Below, in pieces: positions 31,343 to 59,396 of a stretch of DNA of 64,000 nt. The DNA is from Candidatus Nomurabacteria bacterium (lineage in GTDB: Bacteria; Patescibacteriota; Minisyncoccia; Phycocordibacterales; UBA1006): the NCBI GenBank assembly GCA_020632195.1, contig JACKGA010000002.1:2896-66895 (forward strand), read 5' to 3'. A program made the position numbers and the translations under genes. The notes beneath the pieces are model-generated. The model worked only from the letters and a program-made list of their open reading frames with translations, ran no database searches and was not told where the DNA came from. Numbering within the stretch: the first letter of the stretch is position 1; each line of letters begins with the position of its first letter.

Positions 31343-31346
31343 TTTT

Positions 31347-31889: not shown

Positions 31890-31911
31890 ACAATAAAATA
31901 AAAGAGATGAA

Positions 31912-32508
31912 CTACTCAGTAATCGCGACCCCTCGACGGAGCCAGTAGGTCGCCATCGTTACTTGGAACTCGTAATAATCAGGAACTTCGACATTTCCCT
32001 CTCGATCACGGCGAGGTTGCTGAGAAAAATCAACTGATTGTATATCAATAATACGTAGACTCTTCTCTAGAGCATCAAGAAAATCGATGAAAGCGTCATA
32101 TGACCCAAGAGTGGAGAAATCAATCAGGATAGTTCCGAGTGGATTTGATACTTGCGCAGGGTCTGCAACTGCGTCTTGGGCTTCTTCCACTGATACGTCT
32201 TTGAGAATAAGGCCGTGCTCTGAGGCGAGTTGCTCAATATCAATAGAAACGAGCTTTACATTATCGACGTGCGATGGGAGCATCGTCTCAAGATTGGCAA
32301 GATCAGCCTGAGTAAATGCATTGTATCGGGCGAGTAACTGCTCACGCGCAGCACGCAACTCAGCAGCCTTTTGGAGTGCTTCTTCAAGTTCAGCGATATT
32401 TTCACGCAAGAGTTTGGTTTCTTGGTATCCAGGAGCAGCATACACCGCAATACCAACAGCAGATGCAACAATAAAGATAATTGAAACAATAGTTCTAAAC
32501 ATAGGCAT
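31912..32508 (-). CDS. pilO: PilO-like pilus assembly protein
   Basis: N-terminal TM helix, then a coiled coil (LRENIAELEEALQKAAELRAAREQLL), then an alpha/beta domain. Position after the pilM/pilN-like genes. Confidence 0.6.
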   Translation of the reverse strand: MPMFRTIVSIIFIVASAVGIAVYAAPGYQETKLLRENIAELEEALQKAAELRAAREQLLARYNAFTQADLANLETMLPSHVDNVKLVSIDIEQLASEHGLILKDVSVEEAQDAVADPAQVSNPLGTILIDFSTLGSYDAFIDFLDALEKSLRIIDIQSVDFSQQPRRDREGNVEVPDYYEFQVTMATYWLRRGVAITE

Positions 32509-33330: not shown

Positions 33331-34470
33331 CTACCCATTAAAACCTTTCAAAGCCGCACCAACAGCACAGGCAAATTCAGGTCCTACTGATTCAAGCACA
33401 GGACCAAGAAAGCCGGGCACGTCCACCATTTCAAATGGTTCGGCCTGCTGAATCGCAACATCAAATTGACTTTTCATGTGCTCAAGAAGTCCCGGCATAC
33501 GTGCTCCACCGCCAGAAAGTATTATATGATCAACAACTACATGATGTGTTTGCTCATATTTCTGTATTGAAGTGCGAATATCTTGAAGTAATCGACTCAC
33601 TCCTACCTGGAGTGTATTGACGACGTCAGACATGGTACCAGAAAGACCCACGGTGCGCTTGAGTTCTTCCGCCTTGGTAAATGAAATATCAAGAGAGCGC
33701 ATCAATGATTGTGTCCAGCTCTCGCTTCCTCGCACAGCAACATCGTATTGCATAACCATCCCATAATGCACGATAGCAATACGTACACCAGACGCACCAA
33801 TATCTACAATAGCAAAAGGCGTCAGCTCATGATGGTAGAGTGATCGCAAAATGCTAAAAATCTCAATCTCCATACCCTGTACCGTAAGCCCGGCTTGCGC
33901 GATAATGTTTCGATATCCAGATAAAGCATCATTACGTATTGCCGCAACTAAAATATCGCGCTCATTTGAAGGAGAAAGATGAGTGGAAGTATTTTCTTGT
34001 GCTTCTAATTCATATCGGTGCTGAATGTGATCAGGGACCACATTCCAATTCAAAGATACTTCTGATAAAGGAACGGGGATATATTTTCTCGCTTCATTGG
34101 GAACAACCGAATCGAGTGAAGAGAGCGCTTGCATGGGTAACTGAATAACAAACACCAAACTTGCAGACGACTGAATACTGATAATAGCGTGGGTCGCCGT
34201 GCTATGAGATTCTTTCAAAACATCGATCAGTGCTTGAGCAATAATATCAGGATCGGACTGCACGAGTACTCCTACTTCTTTTTGAGCATATGGACCAAGT
34301 GCTACTTCTCCATAGGTACCGAGTGTCAAAACTCCCTTGTCTTTCTTGAGTTCCACCAACTTGATAGAAGATGCCCCAATATCAATCCCAAGAATTGCTT
34401 GAGGTTTTTTTGTAAAGAGTGTCCCGAGCGAGCTGGATGCGCTCGAAAATAAATCAGTGATTGAAGACAT
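33331..34470 (-). CDS. pilM: Type IV pilus assembly protein PilM (actin-like ATPase)
   Basis: GIDIGASSIKLVELKK and VDIGASGVRIAIV phosphate motifs. ILSGGGARMPGL. Confidence 0.85.
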   Translation of the reverse strand: MSSITDLFSSASSSLGTLFTKKPQAILGIDIGASSIKLVELKKDKGVLTLGTYGEVALGPYAQKEVGVLVQSDPDIIAQALIDVLKESHSTATHAIISIQSSASLVFVIQLPMQALSSLDSVVPNEARKYIPVPLSEVSLNWNVVPDHIQHRYELEAQENTSTHLSPSNERDILVAAIRNDALSGYRNIIAQAGLTVQGMEIEIFSILRSLYHHELTPFAIVDIGASGVRIAIVHYGMVMQYDVAVRGSESWTQSLMRSLDISFTKAEELKRTVGLSGTMSDVVNTLQVGVSRLLQDIRTSIQKYEQTHHVVVDHIILSGGGARMPGLLEHMKSQFDVAIQQAEPFEMVDVPGFLGPVLESVGPEFACAVGAALKGFNG

Positions 34471-34562
34471 GAGAAGATTATAGCACAATCTGTTGTCTAG
34501 TTTCTAGGTATCCAGAATCCTACTGTCTTGAAAAATCAGAATGACCATCCTATACTAGGGTC

Positions 34563-36463: not shown

Positions 36464-37060
36464 CTAAAGAGGGATACTTATATCGAGTCCTTGGAGTAGC
36501 CATGTATACAAAATAAGTGTAACTCCAAAAATAAATAATGTAACAATTATTTTATATATTAAACGATGCTTATGGTATTCTTTACGTTCTGAGTGCTTCA
36601 CCACATCGATGAGCTCATCTCCAAAATAAATAGAAAAAAGGGTCCCTATGATAGAAAGTAAGATAATCCCCCAGAAAGGAAATGGTTGAGAGAGAATCTG
36701 GTGGAAGAGTTTAAGAATAACCGTTTTGTTATATATTTCTGGCGTGAAAAAAAATGCATAGAGATTCAACAGAAGAGCCAGAAGAAATGATACTAATTGT
36801 GTATACATCATCTTAATTTTAAATAATAGTCTGATTGGAAAAGCTAAGATGAATCCAGCATCTGCAATAGGAGTAGAAAAGACAAAAAACGACCACGTAA
36901 GGAGCGTAACAAAAAACCCATCTTTGACACCAAACTTCAAGGACATGTAGGCCAGGTAGAAAAGAATGAGGATAACTAAAAAGATAAACTTAAGAAGAGT
37001 TTCCTTCTTTGTTTCGTGTTTGATCCAGGAGTGTCTAGATATGGAAGTCATTTCATTCAT
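36464..37060 (-). CDS. Hypothetical polytopic membrane protein
   Basis: 198 aa with 5-6 predicted TM helices. No family recognised. Confidence 0.55.
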   Translation of the reverse strand: MNEMTSISRHSWIKHETKKETLLKFIFLVILILFYLAYMSLKFGVKDGFFVTLLTWSFFVFSTPIADAGFILAFPIRLLFKIKMMYTQLVSFLLALLLNLYAFFFTPEIYNKTVILKLFHQILSQPFPFWGIILLSIIGTLFSIYFGDELIDVVKHSERKEYHKHRLIYKIIVTLFIFGVTLILYTWLLQGLDISIPL

Positions 37061-37221
37061 AGATAGTAAATAATATTATCAAAATATGCAGCCTATGTGA
37101 ATTCTGTGCTTTATATTTTAAATGAACAAAGAAGTGATGCATTACTATATACAAAAACCACCTCTTTAGTCAGTTTCTATTTTGTATAAGGTATCTGAGT
37201 CTATCCGATACTTTATAGTGT

Positions 37222-37326
37222 TGGCGGAGGGAGTGGGATTCACTGCACCGCATTATTTCAATACTCACTTCGTTCGTGTGAAATATATGCTCCCAGCACC
37301 TTGCTTCTCATCTCGCCAACCTCACA
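37222..37326 (-). pseudogene. Degenerate tRNA-Ser-like remnant (old attachment-site scar?)
   Basis: TTGGCGGAGGGAGTGGGATTC parallels the real tRNA-Ser 3' end TTGGCGGAGAGTAAGGGATTC (43297-43317). ACTTCGTT and GCCAAC(C/T)TC blocks are also shared. No cloverleaf can be folded. Confidence 0.5.
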
Positions 37327-37330
37327 ACAA

Positions 37331-37373
37331 ACTAAAATTTCCCAATACATATAGCATTGGGAAATTTTAGTTT
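37331..37373. repeat. Perfect 16-bp palindromic hairpin
   Basis: ACTAAAATTTCCCAAT ... ATTGGGAAATTTTAGT with a loop of about 11 nt. No flanking U-run on either strand. Confidence 0.7.
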
Positions 37374-37374
37374 G

Positions 37375-37427
37375 TGCGGGCCACGTGAGTTAAGTGCCCA
37401 CACTTCCAAGCACCACAAGGGTTTCTA
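37375..37427. repeat. Junction module copy R1 (53 nt identical to 38688-38740)
   Basis: TGCGGGCCACGTGAGTTAAGTGCCCACACTTCCAAGCACCACAAGGGTTTCTA is identical in both copies. A diverged third copy lies at 38159-38210. Confidence 0.85.
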
Positions 37428-37510
37428 AGCGGTTTTATTCTATCAAAATTAGGGCACGTGGGTCAGGGTGTATAATTTGTTTTACAAATTAAATAATATC
37501 CTTAAGTACA

Positions 37511-38095
37511 TTAATCCTTAAAAGAAATTTGTTTCTCAAATGGCTTTGTTCCATCAACAACAAGGCTTGCTTTGTTTTTTGGGTTATAGTTGTTTAAGTA
37601 GATATCTTCTTCAGCGAGCCATTTTTTCCACAGTATTGTAAGTTCCTCTCTGTCTTTTCCATCACCCACGTCTCTTTCTACTCCACGAATAAGACAAATA
37701 TCTTTTGGCGTATCTACGAAAATATTGAAAGAGATATAATCTTGAAATTCTTTCCGTGAAGAACTTAAGCCTTCTAGTATTATTATATTTGAAACAGGTT
37801 GATTTGTTATCGGCTTGGGGTGATGGTCTTTCCACCAGCTCGTTGGTTGGTAAGAAAGTGATTTTGAGCCATTGATAATTGGTTGGAATATTTTTTCAAT
37901 GATGCTTGGCCACCAATCCAAAGTATTATCCCAGCTGGCAAAATCATCGGTGCGAATAATCTCAGCATTTAATTTTTTTGATAATAGTTTTGCTAATGTA
38001 GATTTACCAGACCCTCCACGTCCATCTATTGCAATAAACTTTACATCTCTAACCTTCGGTTTGGCTGAGGAAATTTTTTCTAAAAGTTTAAACAT
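37511..38095 (-). CDS. P-loop nucleoside/nucleotide kinase-like protein (uridine kinase-like fold)
   Basis: Walker A IAIDGRGGSGKSTLAK, IIILEG, and FVDTPKDICLIRGVERD lid-like segment. Cassette gene 1. Confidence 0.6.
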   Translation of the reverse strand: MFKLLEKISSAKPKVRDVKFIAIDGRGGSGKSTLAKLLSKKLNAEIIRTDDFASWDNTLDWWPSIIEKIFQPIINGSKSLSYQPTSWWKDHHPKPITNQPVSNIIILEGLSSSRKEFQDYISFNIFVDTPKDICLIRGVERDVGDGKDREELTILWKKWLAEEDIYLNNYNPKNKASLVVDGTKPFEKQISFKD

Positions 38096-38140
38096 AAATT
38101 TATTTTAACTTAATTAAAATAAAAAAAGTACTCGGGTCAT

Positions 38141-38210
38141 CCGATACTTTTTTCTTAATGCGGGCCACTCGGGTTAAGTACCCACAACTCCAAACACCAT
38201 AAGGGTTCCT
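38141..38210. repeat. Junction module copy R2
   Basis: CCGATACTTTTTTCTTAA-TGCGG-GCCACTCGGGTTAAGTACCCACAACTCCAAACACCATAAGGGTTCCT. This is a diverged copy of R1/R3 plus the hairpin/T-run shared with R3 and R4. Confidence 0.8.
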
Positions 38211-38255
38211 GGGAAAAGTTTAGACATAAAAAATAAGGTACATGGGTTTAGATTA

Positions 38256-38627
38256 CTATTCAATGTCAACGGAATAGGTACTTCCAAATTCTTTTTGTAA
38301 CATTTTCTGTAATTGATTTCTGGGGATTTGAAGTGGCCCTAATTTTAATGAATAAGAATCACCTATCACAATTTCTTTTTCAAAAAATTTTAAAAAACCA
38401 CCACCTTGATTAGTGAGATCATTCTCGAATCTATCTTCTAATTGTTGTCGTATTTGTAAATGTTCATGAAAAGGCATCGTAGCAAAAAGAAAACCTTTTT
38501 GATTTTTTAGGAGTACATACTTCTGTACCCCACCAAATTTCTTTATATCATCATCTATTTCTATTATTGATCCAACTAAGTTAAGTGGGTTATTTTCTTT
38601 TGTTTCCTTAAAAGGGTTTGATTCCAT
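38256..38627 (-). CDS. Hypothetical protein (cassette gene 2)
   Basis: 123-aa ORF bounded by junction modules. No family recognised. Confidence 0.5.
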   Translation of the reverse strand: MESNPFKETKENNPLNLVGSIIEIDDDIKKFGGVQKYVLLKNQKGFLFATMPFHEHLQIRQQLEDRFENDLTNQGGGFLKFFEKEIVIGDSYSLKLGPLQIPRNQLQKMLQKEFGSTYSVDIE

Positions 38628-38669
38628 ACTTTCATTATAATTTATTTAAATAAATATCTCTAGATCACA

Positions 38670-38740
38670 TCGATACTTTTTTCTTAATGCGGGCCACGTG
38701 AGTTAAGTGCCCACACTTCCAAGCACCACAAGGGTTTCTA
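38670..38740. repeat. Junction module copy R3
   Basis: TCGATACTTTTTTCTTAA-TGCGG-GCCACGTGAGTTAAG... The 53-nt right part is identical to R1. Confidence 0.85.
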
Positions 38741-38781
38741 GAGGTATATTCTGAAATAGGAATAAGGAGTGCGGGTCAACA

Positions 38782-39477
38782 TTATTTATCTAATAGATTT
38801 ACAGATTCAGCAATTTGCTTAATTTCGGGGAAACTATCTGAGTAGCCACTAAATGCAAGTCCACCAAATTTTTCAAAAGGGAGCTTAACTAAAATATCAA
38901 TCAAATGCAGGTCATCCCTACTTCCTGACAGTATCTCATTACAATATCCCGCATCTGACCCTGGTTGTTTATAGAAATCCTCACAAGAAAATGGATTTCG
39001 TTCAACTGCCCAGCTGTCTAGGTTAGCTCTTTCTAGTTGAGAGATGTTAAGAGCTGTTTCAGTTCCGTTCGTACTGTAAGCAACATACTCAGGAACTACA
39101 AAACCATCTGCATCTGAAAAGCCAATAACAAACTTATTAAGATATCCACTTCCTTCGCTATATCGGTAATCTTTTGAAGATGCAAAGAAGTGCATCTCAT
39201 CACTTTTATGGTTAATTAGCTTTCCAATAAAAATCTTCCCCTGGGCTATCTTGTGACCACCTAGACTATCACACGGCATATTTTCTACACAGATTTCAGA
39301 AAAAATTTTGTATTCTTTTGGGTAATAAAAACTAATACCTAGAGTTTCATTACGATACTCTAAAAGATTAGTGTTTCTTTGGATCTCATTGTGTGACAAA
39401 TCTTTTTCACGAGAAGTAAAAATGAACAATACTAACAATAAAGCTATTAATAAAAAGGGTAAGATATATTTTTTCAT
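38782..39477 (-). CDS. Hypothetical secreted protein (cassette gene 3)
   Basis: 231 aa with an N-terminal signal/TM (YILPFLLIALLLVLFIF). No family recognised. Confidence 0.55.
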   Translation of the reverse strand: MKKYILPFLLIALLLVLFIFTSREKDLSHNEIQRNTNLLEYRNETLGISFYYPKEYKIFSEICVENMPCDSLGGHKIAQGKIFIGKLINHKSDEMHFFASSKDYRYSEGSGYLNKFVIGFSDADGFVVPEYVAYSTNGTETALNISQLERANLDSWAVERNPFSCEDFYKQPGSDAGYCNEILSGSRDDLHLIDILVKLPFEKFGGLAFSGYSDSFPEIKQIAESVNLLDK

Positions 39478-39540
39478 ATATTTTAATTATAACACAAAAA
39501 CCACCTTCCTAGGTGGCTTCTGTTTTACAGACTATCTGGG

Positions 39541-39584
39541 TCTATCCGATACTTTTTTCTTACTGCGGAGAGTAAGGGATTCGG
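39541..39584. repeat. Junction module copy R4 carrying a 19-nt tRNA-Ser 3' fragment
   Basis: TCTATCCGATACTTTTTTCTTAC-TGCGG-AGAGTAAGGGATTCG. GCGGAGAGTAAGGGATTCG equals 43300-43318 of the intact tRNA-Ser. The left 80 nt parallels 37151-37220. Confidence 0.8.
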
Positions 39585-39684
39585 TCACCACTGTGGATCC
39601 TCGCTAAAATCTTTCAGATTTTACTGCGGTCTCACAGTCTCGACCCCGATTTTTCTCACCCTATACTCTCTCGCTCGCAAACAA

Positions 39685-39709
39685 AAACAAACGCTATTCG
39701 CGTTTGTTT
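39685..39709 (-). terminator. Probable native terminator of tRNA-Ser, now separated from it by the inserted element
   Basis: AAACAAACGC tattc GCGTTTGTTT. On the minus strand it is followed by UUGUUUG. It lies 8 nt outside the element boundary core at 39718-39721. Confidence 0.5.
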
Positions 39710-39717
39710 TCTAGCTC

Positions 39718-39943
39718 GCGGTGTTTGTTGGACAAAGTTCGAAACTATTTCGAGCAAAATCCAAATGATTAAAACTACTAAAAAGGACTCGGCAGGGCGA
39801 AACAATTTGTCTGGGGTTTCGGATTCGCCCTGCCTCGGCTGATTTCCCGCCCGCAGGAGGGGTCTGGGGAGGAATGCGGGCGGGTTTCGGAACCCTTTTT
39901 CCAAAAACGAATTTTGAATTTTGTTTTTCAAAATGCGTCGCCT
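39718..39943 (-). repeat. Inverted repeat X, left copy (226 bp; partner 41443-41668)
   Basis: The reverse complement matches 41443-41668 with one substitution seen (TTTTTGGAAAAAGGG vs TTTTTGAAAAAAGGG). Confidence 0.9.
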
Positions 39944-39954
39944 AAACCTTAAAA

Positions 39955-40323
39955 CTACAAATTCACTTTATCTTTATCAACCTCTTTCTTAAATTTTACC
40001 CTATCCAAATTTTCCAATTGCCTTTCCGTTAATTTTACATCAATAATTTTTCCGATACCAACTTTTAGCCCAGTAGCATTTAATAATCTAATTAAAGCCA
40101 ATTGATTCATAAGCTGATTTCGCATTTTTTCATTTTGATTTAAAATTTCTGAATTTTCCTCTAACGCTCCCATGGCTTCTTCCATTACCTGTTTATTTTC
40201 ACCTTTAACAACGCTACCGAGTTTAAATGTCCACTTGCCGTCTTGTTGATGAAATAAAACATTTTCCTGCCCAACTAAATCAATAAATTTCCCTGATGCT
40301 TCAAAATATTCCTTGAATCTCAA
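39955..40323 (-). CDS. Hypothetical protein (element cargo; start uncertain, TTG)
   Basis: 122-aa ORF in the same frame as the upstream 98-aa ORF, separated from it by three stop codons. No ATG start. Confidence 0.35.
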   Translation of the reverse strand: MRFKEYFEASGKFIDLVGQENVLFHQQDGKWTFKLGSVVKGENKQVMEEAMGALEENSEILNQNEKMRNQLMNQLALIRLLNATGLKVGIGKIIDVKLTERQLENLDRVKFKKEVDKDKVNL

Positions 40324-40398
40324 TAAAAATTCTCTCGCACAATCTGCAAATTCTTTTTGTCTTTATCCGTTAGCTCAAAAATTGATTTTAATTTTTCG

Positions 40399-40695
40399 TT
40401 AAATTTCAAAAAGTCTTTTTTCATCAAATTCGCCACCACCTAAAAGTGCTTTATTCATTTTGTCATAAGCTTCTCTATTTTCCTCAACAGACGGGTCTTG
40501 CTCAGTATAGCCAGTAATAAAATCTTTTTTGTTCGGGTCTTTAAAAATATCACTCGCTTCCTGTATTGAAATTACACCCTCAATATTTTGCGAAATACCG
40601 TCTTGTTCAACACTTATTTTTGCACCAATACTTTTCACGCAAACAGTGTTCCTGCCCAAAATGTTTGTATAACTGTTCATTTTTACTATTTTCAC
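40399..40695 (-). CDS. Hypothetical protein (element cargo)
   Basis: 98-aa ORF whose ATG overlaps the stop of the upstream frameshifted gene (ATGA). Confidence 0.4.
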   Translation of the reverse strand: MKIVKMNSYTNILGRNTVCVKSIGAKISVEQDGISQNIEGVISIQEASDIFKDPNKKDFITGYTEQDPSVEENREAYDKMNKALLGGGEFDEKRLFEI

Positions 40696-41136
40696 CCCTC
40701 TACATATTCGTCTGCTATTTTTCGCACTTCGGGTGGCAATTCCGCTTGTCCTATACTGCGTGCTTTTTCTAAAGCACCACGATTTAATTTAATAACAAAT
40801 GTTGGTTTTTGGGGATAGATAAAAAACATCATGAGTGCCACCATGTCCGACTCTTTGCAGCTGACTGAAATCAATAAATCCTTCCTTGTTTGGCAATTCA
40901 CTTATAAAGGATTGAATTTTTGTATCTTCACTTTCTATGCCGAGCCGTTCTCTAATCTCCTCAATCTTATTTTGATCATCAATTTTTCTTTGGATAGTTT
41001 CTATTTGCTTTGCGTTATCTGTGCCCACCTCTTGTTGTGACTGACCTGAAACTATTTCGGCTTGCGGTATTTCCGTGGCTTTCTTTTCTTCTTCCGGATT
41101 TTTTGGTTGCATAAATTTTGCTTCAAAATTTTTCAT
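40692..41136 (-). pseudogene. Frameshifted hypothetical gene (two overlapping ORFs joined at a T6 run)
   Basis: ORFs 40789-41136 and 40692-40901 become one reading frame (...VGHGGTHDVF|IYPQKPTFVIKLNRGAL...) if one T is removed from the T6 run (plus-strand A6 at 40821-40826). Confidence 0.5.
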
Positions 41137-41355
41137 AAAAAATATTTCATTAAATCATCAATTGAAACATCTAACCCTTTGGCAATTTTTGCCATAGTTT
41201 CAATAAGTCGGGTTAGGTGTTGCCCCGGACTCAACTTTGATAATCACATTGTAAGCAATATCGGCAAGCTTAGAGAGTTTATCCTGCGAAATACCGAGTT
41301 TTTCTCTGTATTTCTTTATATTCTTTGCAATTGTTGGTAATTCTTTTGACTTCAT
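41133..41355 (-). pseudogene. XRE-family helix-turn-helix regulator, frameshifted
   Basis: MKSKELPTIAKNIKKYREKLGISQDKLSKLADIAYNVIIKVESGATPNPT then a premature TGA (41200-41202). A shift of one base restores IETMAKIAKGLDVSIDDLMKYFL, ending in an ATGA overlap with the next gene. The span is 223 nt, which is 3n+1. Confidence 0.6.
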
Positions 41356-41442
41356 AGTATAATTATACTAGTATAGATAGTGGGATAAGTTTTACTACTA
41401 TAACTTTACCAAATAAAATGAATTTAATCAAACAAAATTTGG

Positions 41443-41784
41443 AGGCGACGCATTTTGAAAAACAAAATTCAAAATTCGTTTTTGAAAAAAGGGTTCCGAA
41501 ACCCGCCCGCATTCCTCCCCAGACCCCTCCTGCGGGCGGGAAATCAGCCGAGGCAGGGCGAATCCGAAACCCCAGACAAATTGTTTCGCCCTGCCGAGTC
41601 CTTTTTAGTAGTTTTAATCATTTGGATTTTGCTCGAAATAGTTTCGAACTTTGTCCAACAAACACCGCCAAAATTGAAAATCGGAATCGGAAGCAAAAAT
41701 GCGGTCGGCGCGAAGCGCCGTCTGTTCTGAATTCCCCCCAAAAAATCCTGAATCTGAAAGGGTTCGCCACGCTCCGCGTGGCTC
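41443..41784 (+). repeat. Central uninterrupted X+Y module (attP-like), 342 bp, immediately upstream of the recombinase ATG
   Basis: 41443-41668 is the inverted copy of 39718-39943. 41665-41784 is the inverted copy of 43184-43303. The two overlap on CCGC at 41665-41668. Confidence 0.9.
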
Positions 41785-41803
41785 CTCGTTTGTCAATACA
41801 ATT

Positions 41804-43327
41804 ATGAATAATCAAACCAAAAAGTTTTTCATATATACTCGCAAGTCAACGGACGACAAAGACAGACAAGTCCGCAGTATTTCTGACCAACTAGCGGAAT
41901 TGAAAAGTTTAGCATTGAAAGAACAACTGGAAGTAGTGGATGTCTTTGTCGAAAAGCAGACCGCCAAAATACCAGGTCGTCCGGTGTTTGGTGAAATGAT
42001 AGAGCGAATGGAGAAAGGCGAAGCGTCTGGTATTTTGGCGTGGCATCCCGATAGACTTGCGAGAAATAGCGTTGATGGTGGAAAAATTATTTATCTTGTT
42101 GATACTGGCGTAATTTCAGAAATGAAATTTCCAACTTTTTGGTTTGATCCGACACCGCAAGGCAAATTCATGCTCTCAATCGCTTTTTCGCAATCCAAGT
42201 ATTATGTAGACAATTTGAGCGAGAATATTAAGCGCGGACATAGGAACAAAGTGAAGGAAGGAATATGGCCTCAAATGGCTCCGCTTGGATATGTGAACAA
42301 AAATAGACGAATTGTGCCTGATGAAAATATCGCACCTTTAATCAAGAAAGCATTTGAGGCATATTCGTCTGGGTCTTTCACTTTGCGCCAACTCCGCGAC
42401 AAATTTAATGTACTTGGATTGAAGCGAAAAAGCGGCAGAGAGCTTGCGGTGTCGAATTATCAAAAACTTCTCAAAAATCCCATTTACACAGGTTTAATGC
42501 TTTACAATGGTGAGATTTTTGAGGGTAAGCACGAACCGATTATTTCAAAGAAACTTTTTGATTCCGTTCAAGAAGTGATGATGAGGAAATCTAAACCAAA
42601 GTCGCGAGGATTGAAACCATTTTTGTATAGAGGATTTTTCCGTTGTGGCGAGTGTGGGTGCTTCATCACCACCGAAACACAAAAAGGTCATAATTATCTC
42701 CGCTGTACCAAACGGAAAAATCCTTGTTCGCAAAAATATACTCGTGAGGAAATCATCACTTCCGAAATTCAAAAGGAAATCAAAAAAGTTTCTTTGCCAG
42801 ACGACTGGGCTTCTTGGATGTTGTCGGAAAATGAAAAAGATAAAATGGTGGAAGCCCAATCGTCTACGCTTTTTGCAGACAAAACAAAAGCCGATATTTC
42901 TCTCTTGAATTCTAAAATTGAGAAGCTGATGAATGCTTATCTCGAAAGTGCTCTCTCGCTAGACGAGTATCGAGATATGAAAAACAAACTTGTGAACGAA
43001 AAACAGCTTCTCAAAGAGAAATTATCGGCTTTTGAGCAAAAAGCGAATAATCGGTTCGAACTTACCGAAAAGTTTTTGAAAGACAATATAGAATTGGCAA
43101 ACGAGGGAATAAATGAAGAGAAACTTCATTTATTCAAAAAAGTCGGTTCGAACTTTCAAATTAAGGATCGAACCGTACTTTTTGAGCCACGCGGAGCGTG
43201 GCGAACCCTTTCAGATTCAGGATTTTTTGGGGGGAATTCAGAACAGACGGCGCTTCGCGCCGACCGCATTTTTGCTTCCGATTCCGATTTTCAATTTTGG
43301 CGGAGAGTAAGGGATTCGAACCCTTGA
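41804..43327 (+). CDS. Large serine recombinase (resolvase/invertase catalytic domain + recombinase domain + zinc-ribbon + coiled coil)
   Basis: FFIYTRKSTDDKDRQVRSISDQ (catalytic Ser context), AWHPDRLARN, GECGCFITTETQKGHNYLRCTKRK zinc ribbon, and a long coiled-coil C-terminus. The ATG at 41804 is chosen. The track ORF start at 41699 lies in the repeat. Confidence 0.88.
   Translation: MNNQTKKFFIYTRKSTDDKDRQVRSISDQLAELKSLALKEQLEVVDVFVEKQTAKIPGRPVFGEMIERMEKGEASGILAWHPDRLARNSVDGGKIIYLVDTGVISEMKFPTFWFDPTPQGKFMLSIAFSQSKYYVDNLSENIKRGHRNKVKEGIWPQMAPLGYVNKNRRIVPDENIAPLIKKAFEAYSSGSFTLRQLRDKFNVLGLKRKSGRELAVSNYQKLLKNPIYTGLMLYNGEIFEGKHEPIISKKLFDSVQEVMMRKSKPKSRGLKPFLYRGFFRCGECGCFITTETQKGHNYLRCTKRKNPCSQKYTREEIITSEIQKEIKKVSLPDDWASWMLSENEKDKMVEAQSSTLFADKTKADISLLNSKIEKLMNAYLESALSLDEYRDMKNKLVNEKQLLKEKLSAFEQKANNRFELTEKFLKDNIELANEGINEEKLHLFKKVGSNFQIKDRTVLFEPRGAWRTLSDSGFFGGNSEQTALRADRIFASDSDFQFWRRVRDSNP
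43184..43303 (-). repeat. Inverted repeat Y, right copy (120 bp; partner 41665-41784)
   Basis: The reverse complement is identical by eye to 41665-41784. It forms the last ~40 codons of the recombinase ORF and ends in the tRNA-Ser CCA/discriminator. Confidence 0.9.
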
Positions 43328-43387
43328 AGCTTTTTACAGCTTACTTCGTTAGCAGTGAAGCGCTTTCGACCACTCAGCCAACTCTCC
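43298..43387 (-). tRNA. tRNA-Ser (GCU), long variable arm, CCA present
   Basis: Minus strand GGAGAGUUGGCUGAGUGGUCGAAAGCGCUUCACUGCUAACGAAGUAAGCUGUAAAAAGCUUCAAGGGUUCGAAUCCCUUACUCUCCGCCA. Acceptor GGAGAGU/ACUCUCC, anticodon loop CUGCUAA. Confidence 0.88.
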
Positions 43388-43415
43388 GATGCAATGGAGC
43401 ATACTATAAAAATTC

Positions 43416-46963: not shown

Positions 46964-47830
46964 CTAAAATTGAACCCATGTGGTTCCATTATAGTATTCC
47001 ATCTGACTGAGGTCGGTGTTGTATCCTATTACACCCCCCGATACTGATGGCCGGCTTGGCGTGTCCCATCTAGGCATTTGAATCCCCTCTGGAGCAGATA
47101 TTACTACTTGACTACCAGAAAATGTTACACCATCAGATTGATCAGAATATCCAAAGAAGACCCCCTTGGAATCAAAAATATTAAAAGTCCCAAGAGTATT
47201 AACATATTTAGTGATTACTGTAGACCCATCATCATAAATAACATGATCCAAATACCCAACTGCAATTTCCATTGGTTCGTTAATATAATCAAAACACCCA
47301 AAGCCTTGTGTTGAGCTGGGGCCATCTGTCACAAGCCATTCTGTGTACGCACAATCACCACCATCCTGAAACTCAACCTCCCCCGTACTTGCATCGACGA
47401 GCGTGAGGACTTGACCGTTGTTGGCCCCTCCAGCTACCACGTCTGGGGTTGCAAAATTCAATGAAGAGTCTGATATTTCGATCCTCCCACCATCAGAAGC
47501 CATACCGACAAATCCTTCTGAGATATTAAATGTAGCAATTCCTTGTGAATCTTCCACTGTTAGAGATCCGCCATTTAAAAAAATTGATGTTGGATCAAAT
47601 AATATTCCCCCCAACTTCACATCACCACTCGTCCCGTCGATAGAGAGACCATTAGACGCAGAGACCCCGATATCTACATAACAATTACTATCTCCATGAT
47701 TACATGAAGGATCGAGTTCATCACCTGGTGCATAGGGTGTTGCTGGGTAGGCTGCAAATACCGTCATAGCTATAGTGAGGAGAGTGGTGATGGTAGCTAC
47801 GAGGATGTATTTGATGGATTGGGTTTTCAT
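46964..47830 (-). CDS. Secreted/surface protein, paralog of 57939-59396
   Basis: The N-terminus ...TTLLTIAMTVFAAYPATPYAPGDELDPSCNHGDSNCYV parallels ...TALLTTAMTVFAAPFTPGQTLDPGCNPGDVDCYV. Both share NGLS.DG.SGDV.LGG. Confidence 0.6.
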   Translation of the reverse strand: MKTQSIKYILVATITTLLTIAMTVFAAYPATPYAPGDELDPSCNHGDSNCYVDIGVSASNGLSIDGTSGDVKLGGILFDPTSIFLNGGSLTVEDSQGIATFNISEGFVGMASDGGRIEISDSSLNFATPDVVAGGANNGQVLTLVDASTGEVEFQDGGDCAYTEWLVTDGPSSTQGFGCFDYINEPMEIAVGYLDHVIYDDGSTVITKYVNTLGTFNIFDSKGVFFGYSDQSDGVTFSGSQVVISAPEGIQMPRWDTPSRPSVSGGVIGYNTDLSQMEYYNGTTWVQF

Positions 47831-47965
47831 AGAATGATGAAATGATGATTAGTTAAATGAGTGGTGTAATGGGATTATTATATCAATTGTGTGGGGGGGG
47901 TGGCAAGGGGTGATCTTCAAAAAGTGTTTGCATATTATAATATCATATGATAATGTCATACACAT

Positions 47966-48190
47966 ATGAGCACTATATCTGTACCCCTCACTCCCGAACT
48001 CGAAGAGTTTATCGAACAGCAATTACGCGAAAATAGGTTTAGCAACAAGGCTGAGCTGGTTCGTCGTGCATTATATGAGTTTTCTGAACAATTAGCGATT
48101 CGTGATGTGATCGAGGCTCAACAAGAAGCTCGATCAGGCGGTGGTATTGCCGGCGATCTCGAAACAATTATTGAAAGTATGATAGACTAA
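47966..48190 (+). CDS. parD: Type II antitoxin, ParD/RHH family
   Basis: 74 aa. ISVPLTPELEEFIEQQL...FSNKAELVRRAL is a ribbon-helix-helix ParD-like pattern. 10 nt upstream of the toxin gene. Confidence 0.7.
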   Translation: MSTISVPLTPELEEFIEQQLRENRFSNKAELVRRALYEFSEQLAIRDVIEAQQEARSGGGIAGDLETIIESMID

Positions 48191-48200: not shown

Positions 48201-48464
48201 ATGTTGAAGATTGTATATATGTCCAAATTTTTACGTCGACTCAAAAAATTAGATCCACAATTACGCCAAGAAATCTATGAAAAAGTAGGGCTTTTTAAAG
48301 ATCCTGCAAATCATGATCGCCTGCGTGTGCATGTGCTAAGAGGAAATCTATCAGGTTTTTGGAGTTTTTCAGTAAATTATAAAATACGGATTGTATTCGA
48401 ATATCGAGATAATGAAACAGTCAATCTGCTCTCTGTTGGAGGTCACGATGTGTACAAACACTAA
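48201..48464 (+). CDS. Type II toxin, RelE/ParE superfamily
   Basis: 87 aa. LRGNLSGFWSFSVNYKIRIVFEYRDNETVNLLSVGGHDVY is a typical RelE/ParE-fold C-terminus. Confidence 0.7.
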   Translation: MLKIVYMSKFLRRLKKLDPQLRQEIYEKVGLFKDPANHDRLRVHVLRGNLSGFWSFSVNYKIRIVFEYRDNETVNLLSVGGHDVYKH

Positions 48465-52030: not shown

Positions 52031-54647
52031 TTAGTTTGTTCCACAGCTGTTGTTGATAGCTGCTTTGGTAAAGGGTCCTACAATACCATCTGCTCCTGCT
52101 GGTCCCAGGTCTGCATTGAGGGTGGTAGCAAGGGCTTGTTGGAGTCGTTGTACGCCTTGTTTGGTAAGAGGTCCATAGATACCGTCTACTGGTCCTGCTG
52201 CTTGGTTGTATTGTGAAGCAAGGATGCGGTTGATGTGTTGTTGTACGAGATGTACTTGGGTTACGGTTGCTTTGTTGTAGGTACCATAGGTATTGTCTCT
52301 GTCTCCTTGTTTCATGTTGTTAGTGATGAGGAGGTTGGTACTACATTGTCCTGAGTTGAGGATGTCTGATACGTCTGTAGGTGGGGTTAGTGGTTGTGGC
52401 GTATCAGTGGTATAGGTACAGAGTGATGGTTTGTGACGTACGAACTGTGAATCATTGTAGTTTGTTGCGGTAGGGTCAGTACAGGCGTAGTTGATGGAGG
52501 ATCCGCTTCGTGGGGAGGGAATAGCATAAGTACCTATACTTGTGTTCCCAGCTAAGTCAGTTGCAGTTGCAGTAAGAGTTTGCCCCGCTGAAGGCGATGG
52601 TTGTGGATTGATACATTCCCATGTTCCACCTGATACCGTGATGGGGTCATTATCACAAGCAATACCCGCAAGCGTGACCATAGTGCCATCTTCTCCTGTC
52701 CCAGTAATAGTAGTTGCTCCTGGAGTTACGGGATTGATAAGAGGAGTCGTTGGCGCAGTGGTGTCGATACCTCCCGGCGCGGTAGTGGCTGATGTATTAC
52801 CAAAGTCATCAGTTGCGGTTGCGGTAATGTCTTCTCCATCAAGAGGTGCTGGGGCAAGAGTACAGCTGTAGTTTCCCCCACTATCTGCCGTGGTTGTACA
52901 GGTAGCGCCTGATGGTGTCGTGATAGTCACCGAGCTAAGAGGCTCGGCTGTGCCTGATACTGGCGCACCTGTCGTTGGTGTATTGAGTATAGTGTGTTGG
53001 ATAGTTGTATCAAGAGTAATGACCAACTGATCTGAATAATCTGATACATTACCAAAATCATCCGTTTCTGTAGCGATGACACTATAAACACCATTCGTCC
53101 ATGGACCTAGGGTTGCACTGACGGTACCTGGCGCTGTACAAGCGATCGTATCGACGTGGAAACCATCGACAAAAATAGTCATGACCGAATCAGATTCGGT
53201 ACATACAAAATCAACGATAGGTGATGCTTGATTGGTCATATCATCAATTGATGAAGAGCCCGTATCGGATCCTGTTTGAAGATCTGGTGTTGCTGGTGTT
53301 GCTGGCGGCGTCACATCGATTTCATAACCTGTCTCTGTAGCAGTATTCGTGTTCCCCGCTACATCAGTAACATTGATCTGGATATCTCCGGTACCTGTAT
53401 GGTCATCAATCTGCAGTGTACAGTCAACGCGAGACGTATTGGTTTGTGTACAGGAGACATTTGAGATTGAAAATGATCCCACGGTATTGGTTGCCACGAC
53501 AGATACGTCACCTGCGTTGATAGCCGTATCATCCTGAACCGTGATGGTAGTGTTCGTAATAGCAGCATTGTCTGCTTTGGTTGGTGCCGTAACGGTAATA
53601 GTCGGCAGAATAGTTTCAATAATAAATGATTGATTATTTTTTCCTATAGCACCATTTCCTGCATCTGTTGCAGTAACCGTGATCGTCCCCGTGGTGGTAA
53701 GAGCACCAATCGTACAGGTAACTGGTTGGACATAGGGAGCAGTTGTATTGCTATTGGTATCTGTACAAGTGCCAAGAGTCGCCCCTGTCCCGCCGTCGAA
53801 TACATTAATGGCACTAATATTATTACCCGATGGAGTCGTCACGGTAAAAGTAGCATCAGTAATCGTGGTATTGCTAATAGGTGTTGGCGTCGAGAATGTA
53901 ATAAGAGGGACAAAACGTACTTCTGATTCACTACTATTCCCTGCCGTGTCAAAAACACGAACCGTAATCTCATGATAAAAAGGCGCCGTCATTAATTCAT
54001 TTGGATCAAGAGATAACGTTACGGGAGACGTTGCAGGAGAGAGCGTTTGTGGATTACCCGAACTATCGACGTAGTCAATCTCATAATAATCTACCGCAAC
54101 ATTATCAAGAGAAGAAAAAGTGATGATGGGATTATTGGGGTCATTGGTCGTCACATCGATAGATGTGGATGGTATCTGTGGTAGTACGGTGTCTATAATA
54201 TAGTTTGATTCTATGCCATAACCTCCTTCGGTGGTGGTGATGACAAGATTCCCTGTACTATCAATATCAATAGTACAGTCTACTTGTGTGATCGAGATTT
54301 GAGTACAGCTCAGGTTTGAATAGGTTGCGGTGGTGTCGGGGTGTATTTGTACATCGGTAGCAAGGATGCTCGTTGGGTGCGTAATAGTGATAGTAGTATC
54401 AGTAATACTGGCATTGTCGAGTTTGGTTGGTGCGGTGATGGAGATATCAGTAGCCCAGGCGATGCGGGCGAGGCGGTTGCGAGACACTCCTCTATAAGTA
54501 GTAAATCTACCACCAACGACAATCTTTCCATCGGGTTGAATGAGGTGTGCGTATGCAATGTCATTGAAACCCGATGAAGAAACACCAAAAGATGTATCTG
54601 GAGAGCCATCAGAGTTCAGGCGAATGATGCGATTCCGTAATGTCCCA
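52031..54647 (-). CDS. C-terminal part of a giant surface protein: Ig-like repeat region + two PG_binding_1-like repeats (frame continues upstream of the annotated Met)
   Basis: Repeated T/N/D-rich beta-type modules (ITVTAPTKADNAAITNTTITV ...). C-terminus GPVDGIYGPLTKQGVQRLQQAL and GADGIVGPFTKAAI is peptidoglycan-binding-like. The same frame stays open to about 54647 and encodes one more delta-60-type repeat. Confidence 0.7.
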
Positions 54648-55640
54648 TTATATATATGCAGTAAACCAGCCGGTCACAATAATCTTACCATCTGACTGGA
54701 CATTGCTCATAAATACGTGACTATTAAACCCAGCTCCGATACTAAATGTCGTATCACGACTACCGTCGGGATTGAGGCGAATGATACGATTAGCAGAAAC
54801 CCCTTGAAATGTAGTAAATTGTCCGACTACAAGTATTTTGCCGTCTGTTTGGACAGTTATATTATACAGGATATTGTTAAACCCAGAGCCAATAGTGAAT
54901 GTGGTGTCAAGTGATCCATCGGGATTCAGGCGGGCGAGGCGCACACGAGAAACACCATTGTATGCAGTAAAAGTACCGCCAACGAGAATCTTCCCATCCG
55001 TCTGTAAAGTGACGCCATTAACGTAATTGTTAAACCCAGAGCCAATAGTGAATGTGGTGTCAAGTGATCCATCGGGATTCAGGCGGGCGAGGCGCACACG
55101 AGAAACACCGTTGTATGCAGTAAAATAACCACCAACGACAATCTTTCCATCGGGTTGAACAACGACATTTCGAGTAATATTGTTAAACCCAGTGCCAACA
55201 TTAAACGTCGTATCAAGTGATCCATCAGAATTGATGCGGGCAATGCGATTGATTGCAGTGCCGTTATATGAGGTAAATTGCCCCACGACAAGAATCTTAC
55301 CATCTGTTTGTATTGCAAGACCACGAACTTGATTATTAAACCCAGTGCCAACATTAAACGTCGTATCAAGTGATCCATCAGAATTGATGCGGGCAATGCG
55401 ATTGATTGCAGTGCCGTTATATGAGGTAAACATACCTCCTGCAATGACTTTCCCATCTGGTTGCTGCTCGAGCGCAATAACATAGTCGTTAAACCCCGTC
55501 CCAACATTAAATGTGGTATCTAGGGTGCCGTCTGAGGCAAATACCGAAAATACACCCACAGCAAAAAATGCAATAAAGATAACAAAGAGGCTGATAATGT
55601 TTTTGAGTGAAAATAATTTGGTCATGGTAAATATATACAA
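54648..55640 (-). CDS. N-terminal part of the same surface protein: signal peptide + six delta-60-type repeats
   Basis: Signal/TM FSLKNIISLFVIFIAFFAVGVFSVFA. A ~50-aa repeat DGSLDTTF.(V/I)G.GFNN......Q.DGKI(L/V)VGG.FT.YNG......R(I/L)N occurs 6 times. The ORF ends at a TAA inside a (TA)n run. Confidence 0.7.
   Translation of the reverse strand: MYIFTMTKLFSLKNIISLFVIFIAFFAVGVFSVFASDGTLDTTFNVGTGFNDYVIALEQQPDGKVIAGGMFTSYNGTAINRIARINSDGSLDTTFNVGTGFNNQVRGLAIQTDGKILVVGQFTSYNGTAINRIARINSDGSLDTTFNVGTGFNNITRNVVVQPDGKIVVGGYFTAYNGVSRVRLARLNPDGSLDTTFTIGSGFNNYVNGVTLQTDGKILVGGTFTAYNGVSRVRLARLNPDGSLDTTFTIGSGFNNILYNITVQTDGKILVVGQFTTFQGVSANRIIRLNPDGSRDTTFSIGAGFNSHVFMSNVQSDGKIIVTGWFTAYI
54876..55430 (-). repeat. 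Near-identical 150/153-bp tandem coding repeats
   Basis: About 97 nt at 54876 recurs at 55029 with one mismatch seen. A second pair lies near 55184 and 55334. Confidence 0.75.
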
Positions 55641-57938: not shown

Positions 57939-59396
57939 TTAGAGCTTAATCCTTACTTCGCCAGTTGGTGTTTTATAAAGATCATTTTGCTGCAAGCCCC
58001 CGGCCCCAGCTGCTGTATCGTCAGCATAGGTTGGCATAGGCATATTGATAATCCCCTGAGTATCAATATGAAGTCGCTGATTATTCTGTGTTCTAACGGT
58101 AAATCCGTCACTATTTATGTTCCATCCGTTCTCATATCTGTTGCCTGTATCATAAATAAACATAGCATCTGCGCCGCCATCCGTAGACTCAACACGCGAA
58201 ATGTCAGTGATAATATTGTTCGAATCTAGAATTCCATAATAAATATTTGAATATGTCTTGCCTGGGGAATCAATAGCTGCATACCCTACTGCATACTCCT
58301 GATTTTTCTGCATCTCCCAAACGGCACCAGGTAATGCGTTGTAGGGGTTCATACTAAAATTAACCCTATAGTCCCCCGCAACATTGGTTCCATTGTTTAC
58401 ATCGACGCCCCCATACCAGTTACCTCGAGAACTGATAAATAAATCTTCTGCGGTATTTATATATGTATTTTCACTCGCAGACAAACTGATCTCATTACCG
58501 GCTGCTGCAAAGCCACTTAGATTGTTGAGGTTGAGGTAATAAGTTGAGGCACCATCAATATCAGTATTCTGAGTAAGTGAACCGCCTAATTCCACATCGC
58601 CACTAACCCCATCAGTAGAAAGCCCATTGGAAACAGTAACACCTCCAGCGCCTATAGATGCCCAGTTAAGATTCCCTGAGCCATCAGTCACTAGTGTCTG
58701 TCCCGAAGTACCATCAGAAAGAGGGAGGGTATACTGACCAACACCCATACTTCCTAACTGAAGACCATTAGAATTAAAGTTAAGAAAAGAACCTGTAAAT
58801 AAGCCTGCTGGGTCTTTGAAAAGAGAAACTGAAAAACCCTCATCATCAACAGAGAGAAAGCTTACATCTTGGGTTGATTCATCAATAAATAGCATGGTTG
58901 GCGAGACAATATCGTCTCCTGCTACAATGCCCCACTGTGAATTATCAAACACACCAATGGCACCCATTGCATCACCCTCTGTTTTATATGCACCTGCAAT
59001 ACTCATAGGCCCTGAGAATGCGTTAGGCGCCCCGAAAAGAGCGTCATATGCAGGAAGGTTGGTGGTTATAGTATCTTGTGAATTAACAAGGTATTGCTGT
59101 CCACTTGTTGATGATTGTTGGGTTACAACATCTCCTTGTACTTCTAGATCAAAAGAAGGATTATTGGTGCCAATACCAATATTGTCACTATCATTCCATA
59201 CTCCTGCACCGTTTTGGGTCCAGTCGGTATCTGATCCTCCTGCTGATACATAACAATCAACATCACCAGGATTACATCCTGGGTCTAGTGTTTGTCCTGG
59301 GGTAAAGGGTGCTGCGAATACCGTCATTGCTGTGGTCAAGAGTGCTGTGGTGAGAGCGATGAAGGTGTATTTGAGGGGTTGGGTGGTTGTTTTCAT
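57939..59396 (-). CDS. Secreted/surface protein, paralog of 46964-47830
   Basis: Shares the signal peptide and the N-terminal Cys-containing motif with the 288-aa paralog. 485 aa, Gly/Asn/Ser/Thr-rich. Confidence 0.6.
   Translation of the reverse strand: MKTTTQPLKYTFIALTTALLTTAMTVFAAPFTPGQTLDPGCNPGDVDCYVSAGGSDTDWTQNGAGVWNDSDNIGIGTNNPSFDLEVQGDVVTQQSSTSGQQYLVNSQDTITTNLPAYDALFGAPNAFSGPMSIAGAYKTEGDAMGAIGVFDNSQWGIVAGDDIVSPTMLFIDESTQDVSFLSVDDEGFSVSLFKDPAGLFTGSFLNFNSNGLQLGSMGVGQYTLPLSDGTSGQTLVTDGSGNLNWASIGAGGVTVSNGLSTDGVSGDVELGGSLTQNTDIDGASTYYLNLNNLSGFAAAGNEISLSASENTYINTAEDLFISSRGNWYGGVDVNNGTNVAGDYRVNFSMNPYNALPGAVWEMQKNQEYAVGYAAIDSPGKTYSNIYYGILDSNNIITDISRVESTDGGADAMFIYDTGNRYENGWNINSDGFTVRTQNNQRLHIDTQGIINMPMPTYADDTAAGAGGLQQNDLYKTPTGEVRIKL

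What the first reader, a model, noticed from the sequence alone, without database searches (positions are those of the whole stretch)
54641..54665. A (TA)n run splits a >1100-aa surface protein: pseudogene or contingency (phase-variable) locus
The 330-aa ORF (signal peptide + six delta-60-type repeats) ends at a TAA formed inside TTATATATATG (run at 54649-54657). The 818-aa downstream ORF's frame is open right up to this point. There it encodes the expected continuation of the repeat: YNGTLRNRIIRLNSDGSPDTSF...GKIVVGGRFTTYRGVSRNRLARI.

The repeat consensus is FT(A/S)YNG. Removing TATA (two TA units) gives exactly FTAYNGTLRNRIIRLN in frame. Adding one TA unit also restores the frame (FTAYIYNG). 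The two ORFs are therefore one gene of about 1190 codons, carrying Ig-like modules and a peptidoglycan-binding C-terminus. It is currently out of frame by a dinucleotide-repeat length change, the classic slipped-strand switch for surface antigens. The tract is short (4 units), so a fixed pseudogene or an assembly error are equally possible.
Basis: partly seen in the sequence, partly recalled or inferred. Interest (0 to 1): 0.55.

Follow-up and report, generated by a model that had tools for sequence, protein, structure and literature searches.

The report
Frameshift-split surface protein gene, Nomurabacteria
One large cell-surface protein gene of an uncultured Nomurabacteria bacterium is cut in two by four extra bases in a short TATATATA run. 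This looks like an ordinary recent knock-out mutation, or possibly an assembly slip, rather than a proven on/off switch.

Summary
On the minus strand, a 325/330-codon ORF (55625/55640..54648) ends at a TAA inside cATATATATAAtggg. The +1 frame is open from 54673 to 52031. Removing TATA gives one 1196-aa protein. It aligns without a gap at the junction with intact 1156-1220-aa homologues, including an intact paralogue reported on a contig of the same length. The architecture is a signal peptide, seven delta-60 (DUF5122) blades, Ig-like domains and a weak PG-binding C-terminus. An AlphaFold model (pLDDT 92) shows a seven-unit beta-propeller. The stop removes the end of blade 6, all of blade 7 and about 870 further residues.

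The phase-variation reading is not supported:
- The tract has 4 units, against a usual cut-off of 6 or more.
- It occurs as often as chance predicts (1 found, 1.2 expected).
- It is absent at the homologous codons of relatives.
- No other allele was found in the protein and contig collections searched.

Assembly error is less likely but still possible. Twenty neighbouring genes are unbroken, and I saw no gene broken at any of the 38 long homopolymer runs.

Best reading: a recent, single 4-bp tandem duplication (ATAT) inactivated one of two paralogous surface-protein genes. Only read-level data can settle it. Interest is low.

The parts
54648..55640 (-). Upstream fragment. The ORF runs from TTG 55640, or from ATG 55625 (NCBI's 325-aa CDS, P0182), to TAA 54650-54648. 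It carries a Sec-type signal peptide (MTKLF...SVFA|SDG) and delta-60 repeats 1-5 plus most of repeat 6.
54649..54657 (-). The (TA)4.5 run (minus strand ATATATATA) that contains the frameshift. The four surplus bases are any ATAT/TATA within it, e.g. 54653-54656.
54648..54650 (-). Premature TAA stop created by the shifted frame.
54460..54652 (-). Rest of repeat 6 and the seventh delta-60 repeat, in the +1 frame (YNGTLRNRIIRLNSDGSPDTSF...GGRFTTYRGVSRNRLARI). Not covered by any annotated CDS until GTG 54487.
52031..54487 (-). Downstream fragment, annotated as the 818-aa 'hypothetical protein H6776_01135' (P0002, 100% identical). It starts at an internal GTG and has no signal peptide.
53006..53293 (-). 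Best Big_13 Ig-like domain (residues 782-877 of the repaired protein). A second, weaker copy also matches.
52781..52975 (-). Best Big_6 Ig-like domain (residues 888-952).
52058..52255 (-). C-terminal PG_binding_1-like region (21.2 bits, just under Pfam's cut-off of 23). The homologues P0005 and P0012 carry a precomputed PF01471 match.
54871..55520 (-). 153-bp tandem DNA repeats (82-95% identical) that encode the delta-60 blades. The frameshift lies outside this highly similar stretch.

Best explanation
A single gene for a secreted, probably wall-anchored surface protein carries one frameshifting lesion. Its domains are a signal peptide, a seven-bladed delta-60/DUF5122 beta-propeller, a spacer region conserved in this family, Big_13/Big_6 Ig-like domains and a PG-binding-like tail.

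The Tyr-Asn codon pair of blade 6 was ancestrally GCA TAT AAT. It now reads GCA TAT ATA TAA T. This is a 4-bp tandem duplication (ATAT/TATA) of the kind replication slippage produces at any mini-repeat.

Consequences:
- Translation stops after 325 residues.
- The secreted product would be an unclosed propeller lacking the last strand of blade 6, blade 7 and everything downstream.
- The remaining 870 codons have no signal peptide. Their only start is an internal GTG.
- So the locus is a young, non-programmed loss-of-function allele (a nascent pseudogene), tolerated because an intact paralogue with the same architecture appears to lie on the same contig.

Shown: one gene, one lesion, its position, and its effect on the fold. 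Inferred: that the lesion is real in the cells and not in the assembly, that it is a +4 event, and that it is not a rapidly reversible switch.
For: - The repaired protein aligns end to end (1196 aa) with intact homologues: P0005 (1220 aa, 59% identity, 97% coverage, reported on a contig of the same 131,795-nt length), P0012 and P0087. There is no gap at the junction; P0087 reads RFTAYNGSYRIRIARIN.
- Seven DUF5122 units are found. The AF2 model of residues 31-414 has pLDDT 92.4 and pTM 0.88 and shows seven repeated blade units. The stop falls after model residue Y294, before strand 302-305 of blade 6 and before blade 7 at 326-358. PDB matches are all beta-propellers.
- There is only one lesion. 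The 880 codons downstream stay open, and the C-terminus is colinear with the homologues. This points to a recent event.
- Other blades of the same gene encode Y-N as TATAAC, TACAAC or TACAAT. Only blade 6 uses TAT AAT, which gives the ATAT seed for a duplication.
- The window is otherwise clean. Twenty neighbouring genes cover their Pfam profiles fully, e.g. M29 2-406/406, TGT 3-356/357, MreB 2-324/327, PilM 1-340/340. None of the long ORFs I inspected breaks at any of the 38 homopolymer runs of 6-9 nt.
- A relative from an Illumina/MEGAHIT assembly (L014, 63-65% identity) carries an independent single frameshift at a different place, a C7 run. Genes of this family do get knocked out.
Against: - No reads are available, so a consensus or assembly error cannot be excluded.
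- A lesion that sits exactly in a dinucleotide run of a surface-protein gene, with the rest of a 3.6-kb gene untouched, is also what a reversible switch would look like.
- A +4 change (two units at once) is a less common slippage event than a one-unit change.
- The loop at this position tolerates length change: P0005 has a 3-residue deletion there. An in-frame (TA)5 allele reading AYIYNG is therefore conceivable.
Confidence: 0.55

Rival explanations
1. Assembly or consensus error. The real genome has an in-frame tract (TATAAT or (TA)5), and the extra bases were introduced by basecalling or polishing.
For: - The gene is otherwise perfect over 3.6 kb.
- MAG assemblies can carry such errors. In the related locus L012 the homologous gene is shifted at a C6 run and recG at a T7 run, typical of uncorrected long-read errors.
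- The gene contains 153-bp repeats that could disturb read mapping during polishing.
Against: - I saw no gene broken at any of the 38 homopolymer runs of 6-9 nt in the window, and all 20 neighbouring genes tested are full length. The error type that dominates noisy assemblies is therefore absent here.
- A 9-nt TA run is trivial for short reads.
- A +4 error is unusual.
- The tract lies outside the near-identical part of the repeat array.
Confidence: 0.2
2. Contingency locus. The TA run changes length by slipped-strand mispairing fast enough to switch the adhesin-like protein on ((TA)5 or (TA)2) and off ((TA)4) within the population.
For: - The frame toggles with tract length, and one added unit restores it.
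- The target is a secreted multi-domain surface protein.
- There are no secondary lesions.
- The junction loop tolerates indels.
- A relative is shifted at a C7 run, which does reach the poly-C cut-off.
- A C8 run sits in the promoter spacer of another secreted-protein gene in the window.
Against: - Four units is below the cut-off of 6 or more units.
- One tract was found against 1.21 expected by chance. The C8 and C7 runs are also within chance.
- The tract is absent from the homologous codons in L012 and L013 and from the other six blades.
- The family-consistent ON state, TATAAT, has no tract.
- No alternative allele was found among 5.8 billion protein clusters.
Confidence: 0.15
3. Recoding. 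Ribosomes reach the downstream frame either by a -2 slip of tRNA-Ile from ATA to the overlapping ATA while TAA waits in the A site (giving AYIYNG), or by a +4 hop of tRNA-Tyr from TAT to TAT (giving AYNG).
For: Read directly from the sequence: identical codons are available for re-pairing at -2 (ATA) and at +4 (TAT), and a stop codon follows immediately. A stop at that position is known to stimulate shifting.
Against: - There is no Shine-Dalgarno-like stimulator upstream.
- There is no stable structure downstream (-22 kcal/mol, z = -0.43).
- The site is not conserved in any homologue, and all of them are simply in frame.
- Such events are normally under 1% efficient without stimulators (general knowledge).
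Confidence: 0.03
4. Two separate functional genes, as annotated: a 325-aa delta-60 protein and an 818-aa Ig-like protein.
For: NCBI annotates two CDSs (P0182 and P0002).
Against: - The 62 codons upstream of the annotated GTG continue the repeat in the same frame.
- Blade 7 is split from blades 1-6.
- The downstream CDS lacks a signal peptide.
- Homologues are single polypeptides.
Confidence: 0.02

Closest known systems
Delta-60 repeat (TIGR02608 / Pfam DUF5122) beta-propeller proteins; specifically the 1150-1220-aa 'peptidoglycan-binding protein' architecture of Patescibacteria (P0005, P0012, P0087)
   Same: Same domain order and colinear alignment over the full length at 47-59% identity. Seven blade repeats, Big_13/Big_6 domains and a PG-binding-like tail.
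   Different: This copy is interrupted by a frameshift. The function of the family is untested, and the term 'delta-60 repeat' occurs in no paper of the library searched.
Frameshift pseudogenes created by short tandem duplications or deletions at mini-repeats
   Same: A single out-of-frame indel at a short repeat, an intact paralogue available, and an independent knock-out in a relative (L014).
   Different: There are no secondary lesions yet, so pseudogene status rests on one mutation whose reality is not verified by reads.
SSR-mediated phase-variable surface genes (e.g. Haemophilus, Neisseria and Campylobacter contingency loci)
   Same: A repeat tract inside the ORF of a surface protein whose length sets the reading frame.
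   Different: The tract has 4 units rather than 6 or more. It is not conserved, not enriched, and no length variants are known. No phase variation has been described for Patescibacteria in the papers found (one search listed none that mention them).
Programmed frameshifting or hopping (prfB +1, dnaX -1, -2 shifts in some phage tail genes, T4 gene 60 bypass)
   Same: Re-pairing codons and an adjacent stop are present.
   Different: There are no stimulatory elements and no conservation.

Membership tests
DUF5122 / delta-60 repeat proteins | Tandem ~51-55-aa repeats scoring above the curated cut-offs | tested here: met
   Pfam PF17164 355 bits (cut-off 27), 7 stretches. TIGR02608 243 bits (cut-off 76.5).
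DUF5122 / delta-60 repeat proteins | Repeats fold as blades of a closed beta-propeller | tested here: met
   The AF2 model (pLDDT 92.4, pTM 0.88) has 7 repeated blade units. Foldseek hits are all propellers.
Patescibacterial delta-60 / Ig-like / PG-binding surface proteins (P0005-like) | Colinear full-length similarity and the same domain order | tested here: met
   59%, 57% and 47% identity over 92-99% of the repaired protein, aligning without a gap at the junction.
Patescibacterial delta-60 / Ig-like / PG-binding surface proteins (P0005-like) | C-terminal peptidoglycan-binding domain | tested here: inconclusive
   PG_binding_1 scores 21.2 bits against a cut-off of 23. The homologues carry the precomputed domain.
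SSR contingency (phase-variable) locus | A repeat tract whose unit changes shift the reading frame or the promoter spacing | tested here: met
   +1 unit or -2 units restores the frame.
SSR contingency (phase-variable) locus | Tract long enough to be hypermutable (6 or more dinucleotide units in PhasomeIt's cut-offs) | tested here: not met
   4 full units (9 nt). Cut-off taken from PMC6321876.
SSR contingency (phase-variable) locus | Tract over-represented or conserved at the locus in relatives | tested here: not met
   1 found against 1.21 expected. Relatives read GCG TAC AAC and GCT AAT at the site.
SSR contingency (phase-variable) locus | Tract-length polymorphism within or between populations | not testable with these tools
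   There is no read data. No allele at 90% identity or more exists in the protein collection. The source genome is absent from the contig collections.
Pseudogene | ORF disrupted relative to intact homologues | tested here: met
Pseudogene | Lesion real in the organism and not repaired or expressed | not testable with these tools
   Needs reads, transcripts and peptides.
Programmed ribosomal frameshift | Slippery site plus a stimulatory element, conserved among homologues | tested here: not met
   No Shine-Dalgarno-like element, downstream fold z = -0.43, and the site is absent in homologues.

The most novel reading that the evidence does not exclude
Short simple-sequence tracts may act as low-grade contingency switches for surface proteins in Patescibacteria (CPR), a group for which phase variation has not been described. 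Three observations fit this: the (TA)4-5 run in this adhesin-like gene, the C7 run that splits its closest relative in an Illumina assembly, and the C8 run in the promoter spacer of a neighbouring secreted-protein gene. If these reduced genomes lack mismatch repair, even short tracts could switch at useful rates.
Probability: 0.12. Interest if true: 0.6.

Novelty: new member of a known kind. Interest (0 to 1): 0.2.

Why it matters
As it stands this is mainly an annotation correction. H6776_01135 and the upstream 325-aa CDS are two halves of one frameshifted surface-protein gene and should be flagged as a pseudogene or frameshift. It also defines the intact architecture (seven-bladed delta-60 propeller, Ig-like stalk, wall-binding tail) of a surface-protein family in Nomurabacteria and its relatives. 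That family is a plausible host- or particle-attachment factor in organisms thought to live as episymbionts. Only if read data showed tract-length heterogeneity would it become a first case of SSR phase variation in this radiation.

Tried and rejected
- Looked for the same locus in other assemblies. Exact-protein look-ups of P0002 and P0005 found nothing on record. Scans of genome contigs and metagenome contigs with a family profile returned only relatives at 47% identity or less, and the source genome was not among them. A second protein search centred on the junction returned only proteins of 673 aa or less and no near-identical allele. No independent tract-length evidence was obtained.
- First took the frameshift in the P0012 locus (C6 run just after the signal peptide) as a possible third SSR-linked switch. 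I rejected this because recG in the same locus is also broken at a T7 run, so that assembly is simply error-prone.
- Tested for enrichment of TA, C8 and C7 tracts. All are within chance.
- Tested for frameshift-stimulating RNA structure downstream. None was found.
- The promoter and terminator scan around the gene gave fewer hits than shuffles and nothing informative.
- A literature search for 'delta-60 repeat' returned no papers. No paper found links Patescibacteria with phase variation.
- I could not establish which sequencing platform produced the source MAG.
Full report
**What is in the sequence.**
- The feature lies on the minus strand. The + strand reads TATATATAT at 54649-54657.
- On the coding strand the text is GGC TGG TTT ACT GCA TAT ATA TAA TGG GAC.
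- Frame 0 carries an ORF from TTG 55640, or from ATG 55625 (the start NCBI uses, giving the 325-aa protein P0182). It ends ...GWFTAYI-stop, with the TAA at 54650-54648.
- The +1 frame is open from 54673 to the stop at 52031, 880 codons in all. From the tract onward it reads YNGTLRNRIIRLNSDGSPDTSF...GGRFTTYRGVSRNRLARI, the missing end of repeat 6 plus a seventh repeat.
- The mechanically listed 818-aa ORF (GTG 54487..52031) is 100% identical to NCBI's 'hypothetical protein H6776_01135 [Candidatus Nomurabacteria bacterium]', which lies on a 131,795-nt contig (P0002).
- Deleting TATA gives a single ORF of 1201 codons from the TTG (1196 from the ATG). Adding TA, or deleting one base, also restores the frame but adds residues (FTAYIYNG, FTAYING).

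**It is one gene.**
- The repaired protein has seven DUF5122/delta-60 units (355 bits), two Big_13 and two Big_6 Ig-like domains, and a PG_binding_1-like C-terminus just under threshold.
- It aligns colinearly over its whole length with three uninterrupted proteins of the same architecture:
  - P0005: 1220 aa, 59% identity, 97% coverage, 'peptidoglycan-binding protein', reported on a contig of the same 131,795-nt length. It is most likely a paralogue in the same genome, lying outside the window.
  - P0012: 1156 aa, 57% identity.
  - P0087: 1209 aa, 47% identity.
- At the junction the TATA-deleted version needs no gap: WFTAYNGTLRNRIIRLN aligns with P0087 RFTAYNGSYRIRIARIN. P0005 has a three-residue deletion exactly there, so this turn tolerates length change.
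- An AlphaFold2 model of residues 31-414 of the repaired protein is confident (pLDDT 92.4, pTM 0.88) and shows seven repeated blade units. Its PDB neighbours are all beta-propellers.
- The premature stop falls after model residue Y294. That is before the last strand of blade 6 (302-305) and before all of blade 7 (326-358).
- The 325-aa product would therefore be an unclosed propeller without its stalk and anchor.
- The downstream piece has no signal peptide, and the frame holds no start codon before the internal GTG. Reading the locus as two functional genes is not tenable.

**Is the tract special?** No.
- TATATATA occurs once in the window, against 1.21 expected from dinucleotide-preserving shuffles. 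Only six dinucleotide runs of four or more units exist in 64 kb.
- The other six blades encode the Tyr-Asn (or equivalent) pair as TATAAC, TACAAC, TACAAT, TTTCAA or TATAGA. Only blade 6 uses TAT AAT after GCA, which gives an ATAT seed.
- At the homologous codons, relatives read GCG TAC AAC GGT (L013) and GCT AAT GGG (L012).
- So there is no conserved or expanded tract. The family-consistent in-frame state, TATAAT, is not a repeat tract at all.
- Four units is below the cut-off of six or more dinucleotide units used to call phase-variable loci. The same authors note that even tracts at their cut-offs may switch too slowly (PMC6321876).
- No RNA structure follows the stop (z = -0.43). No Shine-Dalgarno-like element precedes it. 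Programmed frameshifting has no support beyond the trivial availability of re-pairing codons.

**Real mutation or assembly error?** I could not reach reads or another assembly of this organism.
- Exact look-ups of P0002 and P0005 failed.
- The source genome is not in the genome or metagenome contig collections.
- No allele at 90% identity or more, intact or fragmentary, appears among the protein clusters.
- Indirect evidence favours a real lesion:
  - I saw no gene broken at any of the 38 homopolymer runs of 6-9 nt in the window.
  - Twenty neighbouring genes cover their Pfam models from end to end.
  - Long ORFs cover 89% of the window. None of the gaps over 250 nt that I looked at held a broken gene; the ones examined contain tRNA genes, a toxin-antitoxin pair or small island ORFs.
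- Contrast this with locus L012, which carries P0012. There the homologous gene is shifted at a C6 run just after the signal peptide and recG is shifted at a T7 run, the signature of an error-prone assembly. The window shows nothing of that kind.
- The tract also lies outside the 82-95% identical 153-bp repeat array (54871-55520), where mis-mapping during polishing would be a concern.

**Relatives.**
- The closest relative with DNA is L014, an ENA MEGAHIT contig at 63-65% identity with only three blades. It is also split by one frameshift, but at a different place and tract: GTT GCC CCC CCA, a C7 run where the window gene and L012 read ..PQ.P at that spot.
- This shows that genes of this family are independently knocked out in nature. 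It does not show a shared switch: the C7 run is within chance (0.33 expected in 8.7 kb) and is absent from the window gene and from L012.

**Verdict.**
- The most economical account is a recent 4-bp tandem duplication that inactivated one of two paralogous surface-protein genes (confidence about 0.55).
- Recency is inferred from the absence of any second lesion in 3.6 kb.
- Rivals are assembly error (about 0.2), a genuine but weak contingency switch (about 0.15), recoding (about 0.03), and two real genes (about 0.02).
- Counting TA units in the original reads would decide between the first three.
- The finding is a sound catch and a useful annotation correction, but biologically ordinary unless heterogeneity is demonstrated.

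Noticed in passing
window 47893-47900 (G8 on +, C8 on the minus strand), upstream of ORF 46964..47830(-): A C8 run lies between a TTGCCA (-35-like) and a TATAAT (-10-like) hexamer, giving an 18-nt spacer. It sits about 45 nt upstream of the ATG of a 288-aa secreted protein with no Pfam match. This is the classic promoter-spacer layout for phase variation. It is the only G/C run of 8 or more in the window, but that is within chance (0.63 expected). Two further G6 runs lie inside the same gene (47034, 47607).
   Followed up: partly
window 36400-43400: A low-GC island (0.36 against 0.42-0.46) ends at tRNA-Ser(gct) 43298-43387(-). It holds a large serine recombinase (41699..43327, Resolvase + Recombinase + Zn_ribbon_recom). 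There are two perfect inverted repeats: 226 nt (39718-39943 / 41443-41668) and 120 nt (41665-41784 / 43184-43303), the latter enclosing the recombinase gene. There are also 69-nt direct repeats x3 and fragments resembling tRNA 3' ends. It could be an integrated element with invertible segments, or an assembly palindrome.
   Followed up: partly
L014 3157-3163 (ENA ERZ27301260 k141_381600): The closest relative of the gene (63-65% aa identity, only 3 delta-60 blades) is split into 292-aa and 643-aa ORFs by one frameshift at a C7 run. It is flanked by integrase and transposase fragments and an Abi_2 gene.
   Followed up: yes
L012 ~9985-10030 and ~19140-19175 (JGI 3300056999 Ga0558716_03411): The P0012 gene has lost its signal peptide in the gene call because of a frameshift at a C6 run. 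recG in the same locus is split at a T7 run. This contig appears to carry homopolymer indel errors, so the 1156-aa length of P0012 is an artefact.
   Followed up: yes
window 54871-55520: The delta-60 blades are encoded by 153-bp tandem DNA repeats up to 95% identical (blades 4/5 and 2/3 are nearly identical). This indicates recent intragenic duplication or gene conversion. In-frame changes in blade number are a second possible route of variation: relatives have 3 to 7 blades.
   Followed up: partly
window 46964..47830(-) and 57939..59396(-): Two paralogous secreted proteins (288 and 485 aa, no Pfam match) share an N-terminus (MK..TTLLT.AMTVFAA..PG..LDP.CN.GD..CYV). They bracket the uvrB / surface gene / uvrA block. 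A ParE/RelE-like toxin-antitoxin pair (47966..48190, 48201..48464) sits between uvrA and the 288-aa gene.
   Followed up: partly
window 19700-34500: A type IV pilus gene cluster: PilM 33331..34488, PilO-like 31912..32508, and at least five prepilin-type N-methyl proteins at 22336-26074. Three of the window's ten G/C runs of 6 or more fall in these pilin genes (24364, 24469, 25227).
   Followed up: no
L013 7681-13630 (JGI 3300056827 Ga0558118_00083): In this 636-kb contig the family occurs as two adjacent paralogues (737 aa and 1209 aa), just upstream of infA and the rpsM-rpsK-rpsD-rpoA ribosomal protein cluster.
   Followed up: no
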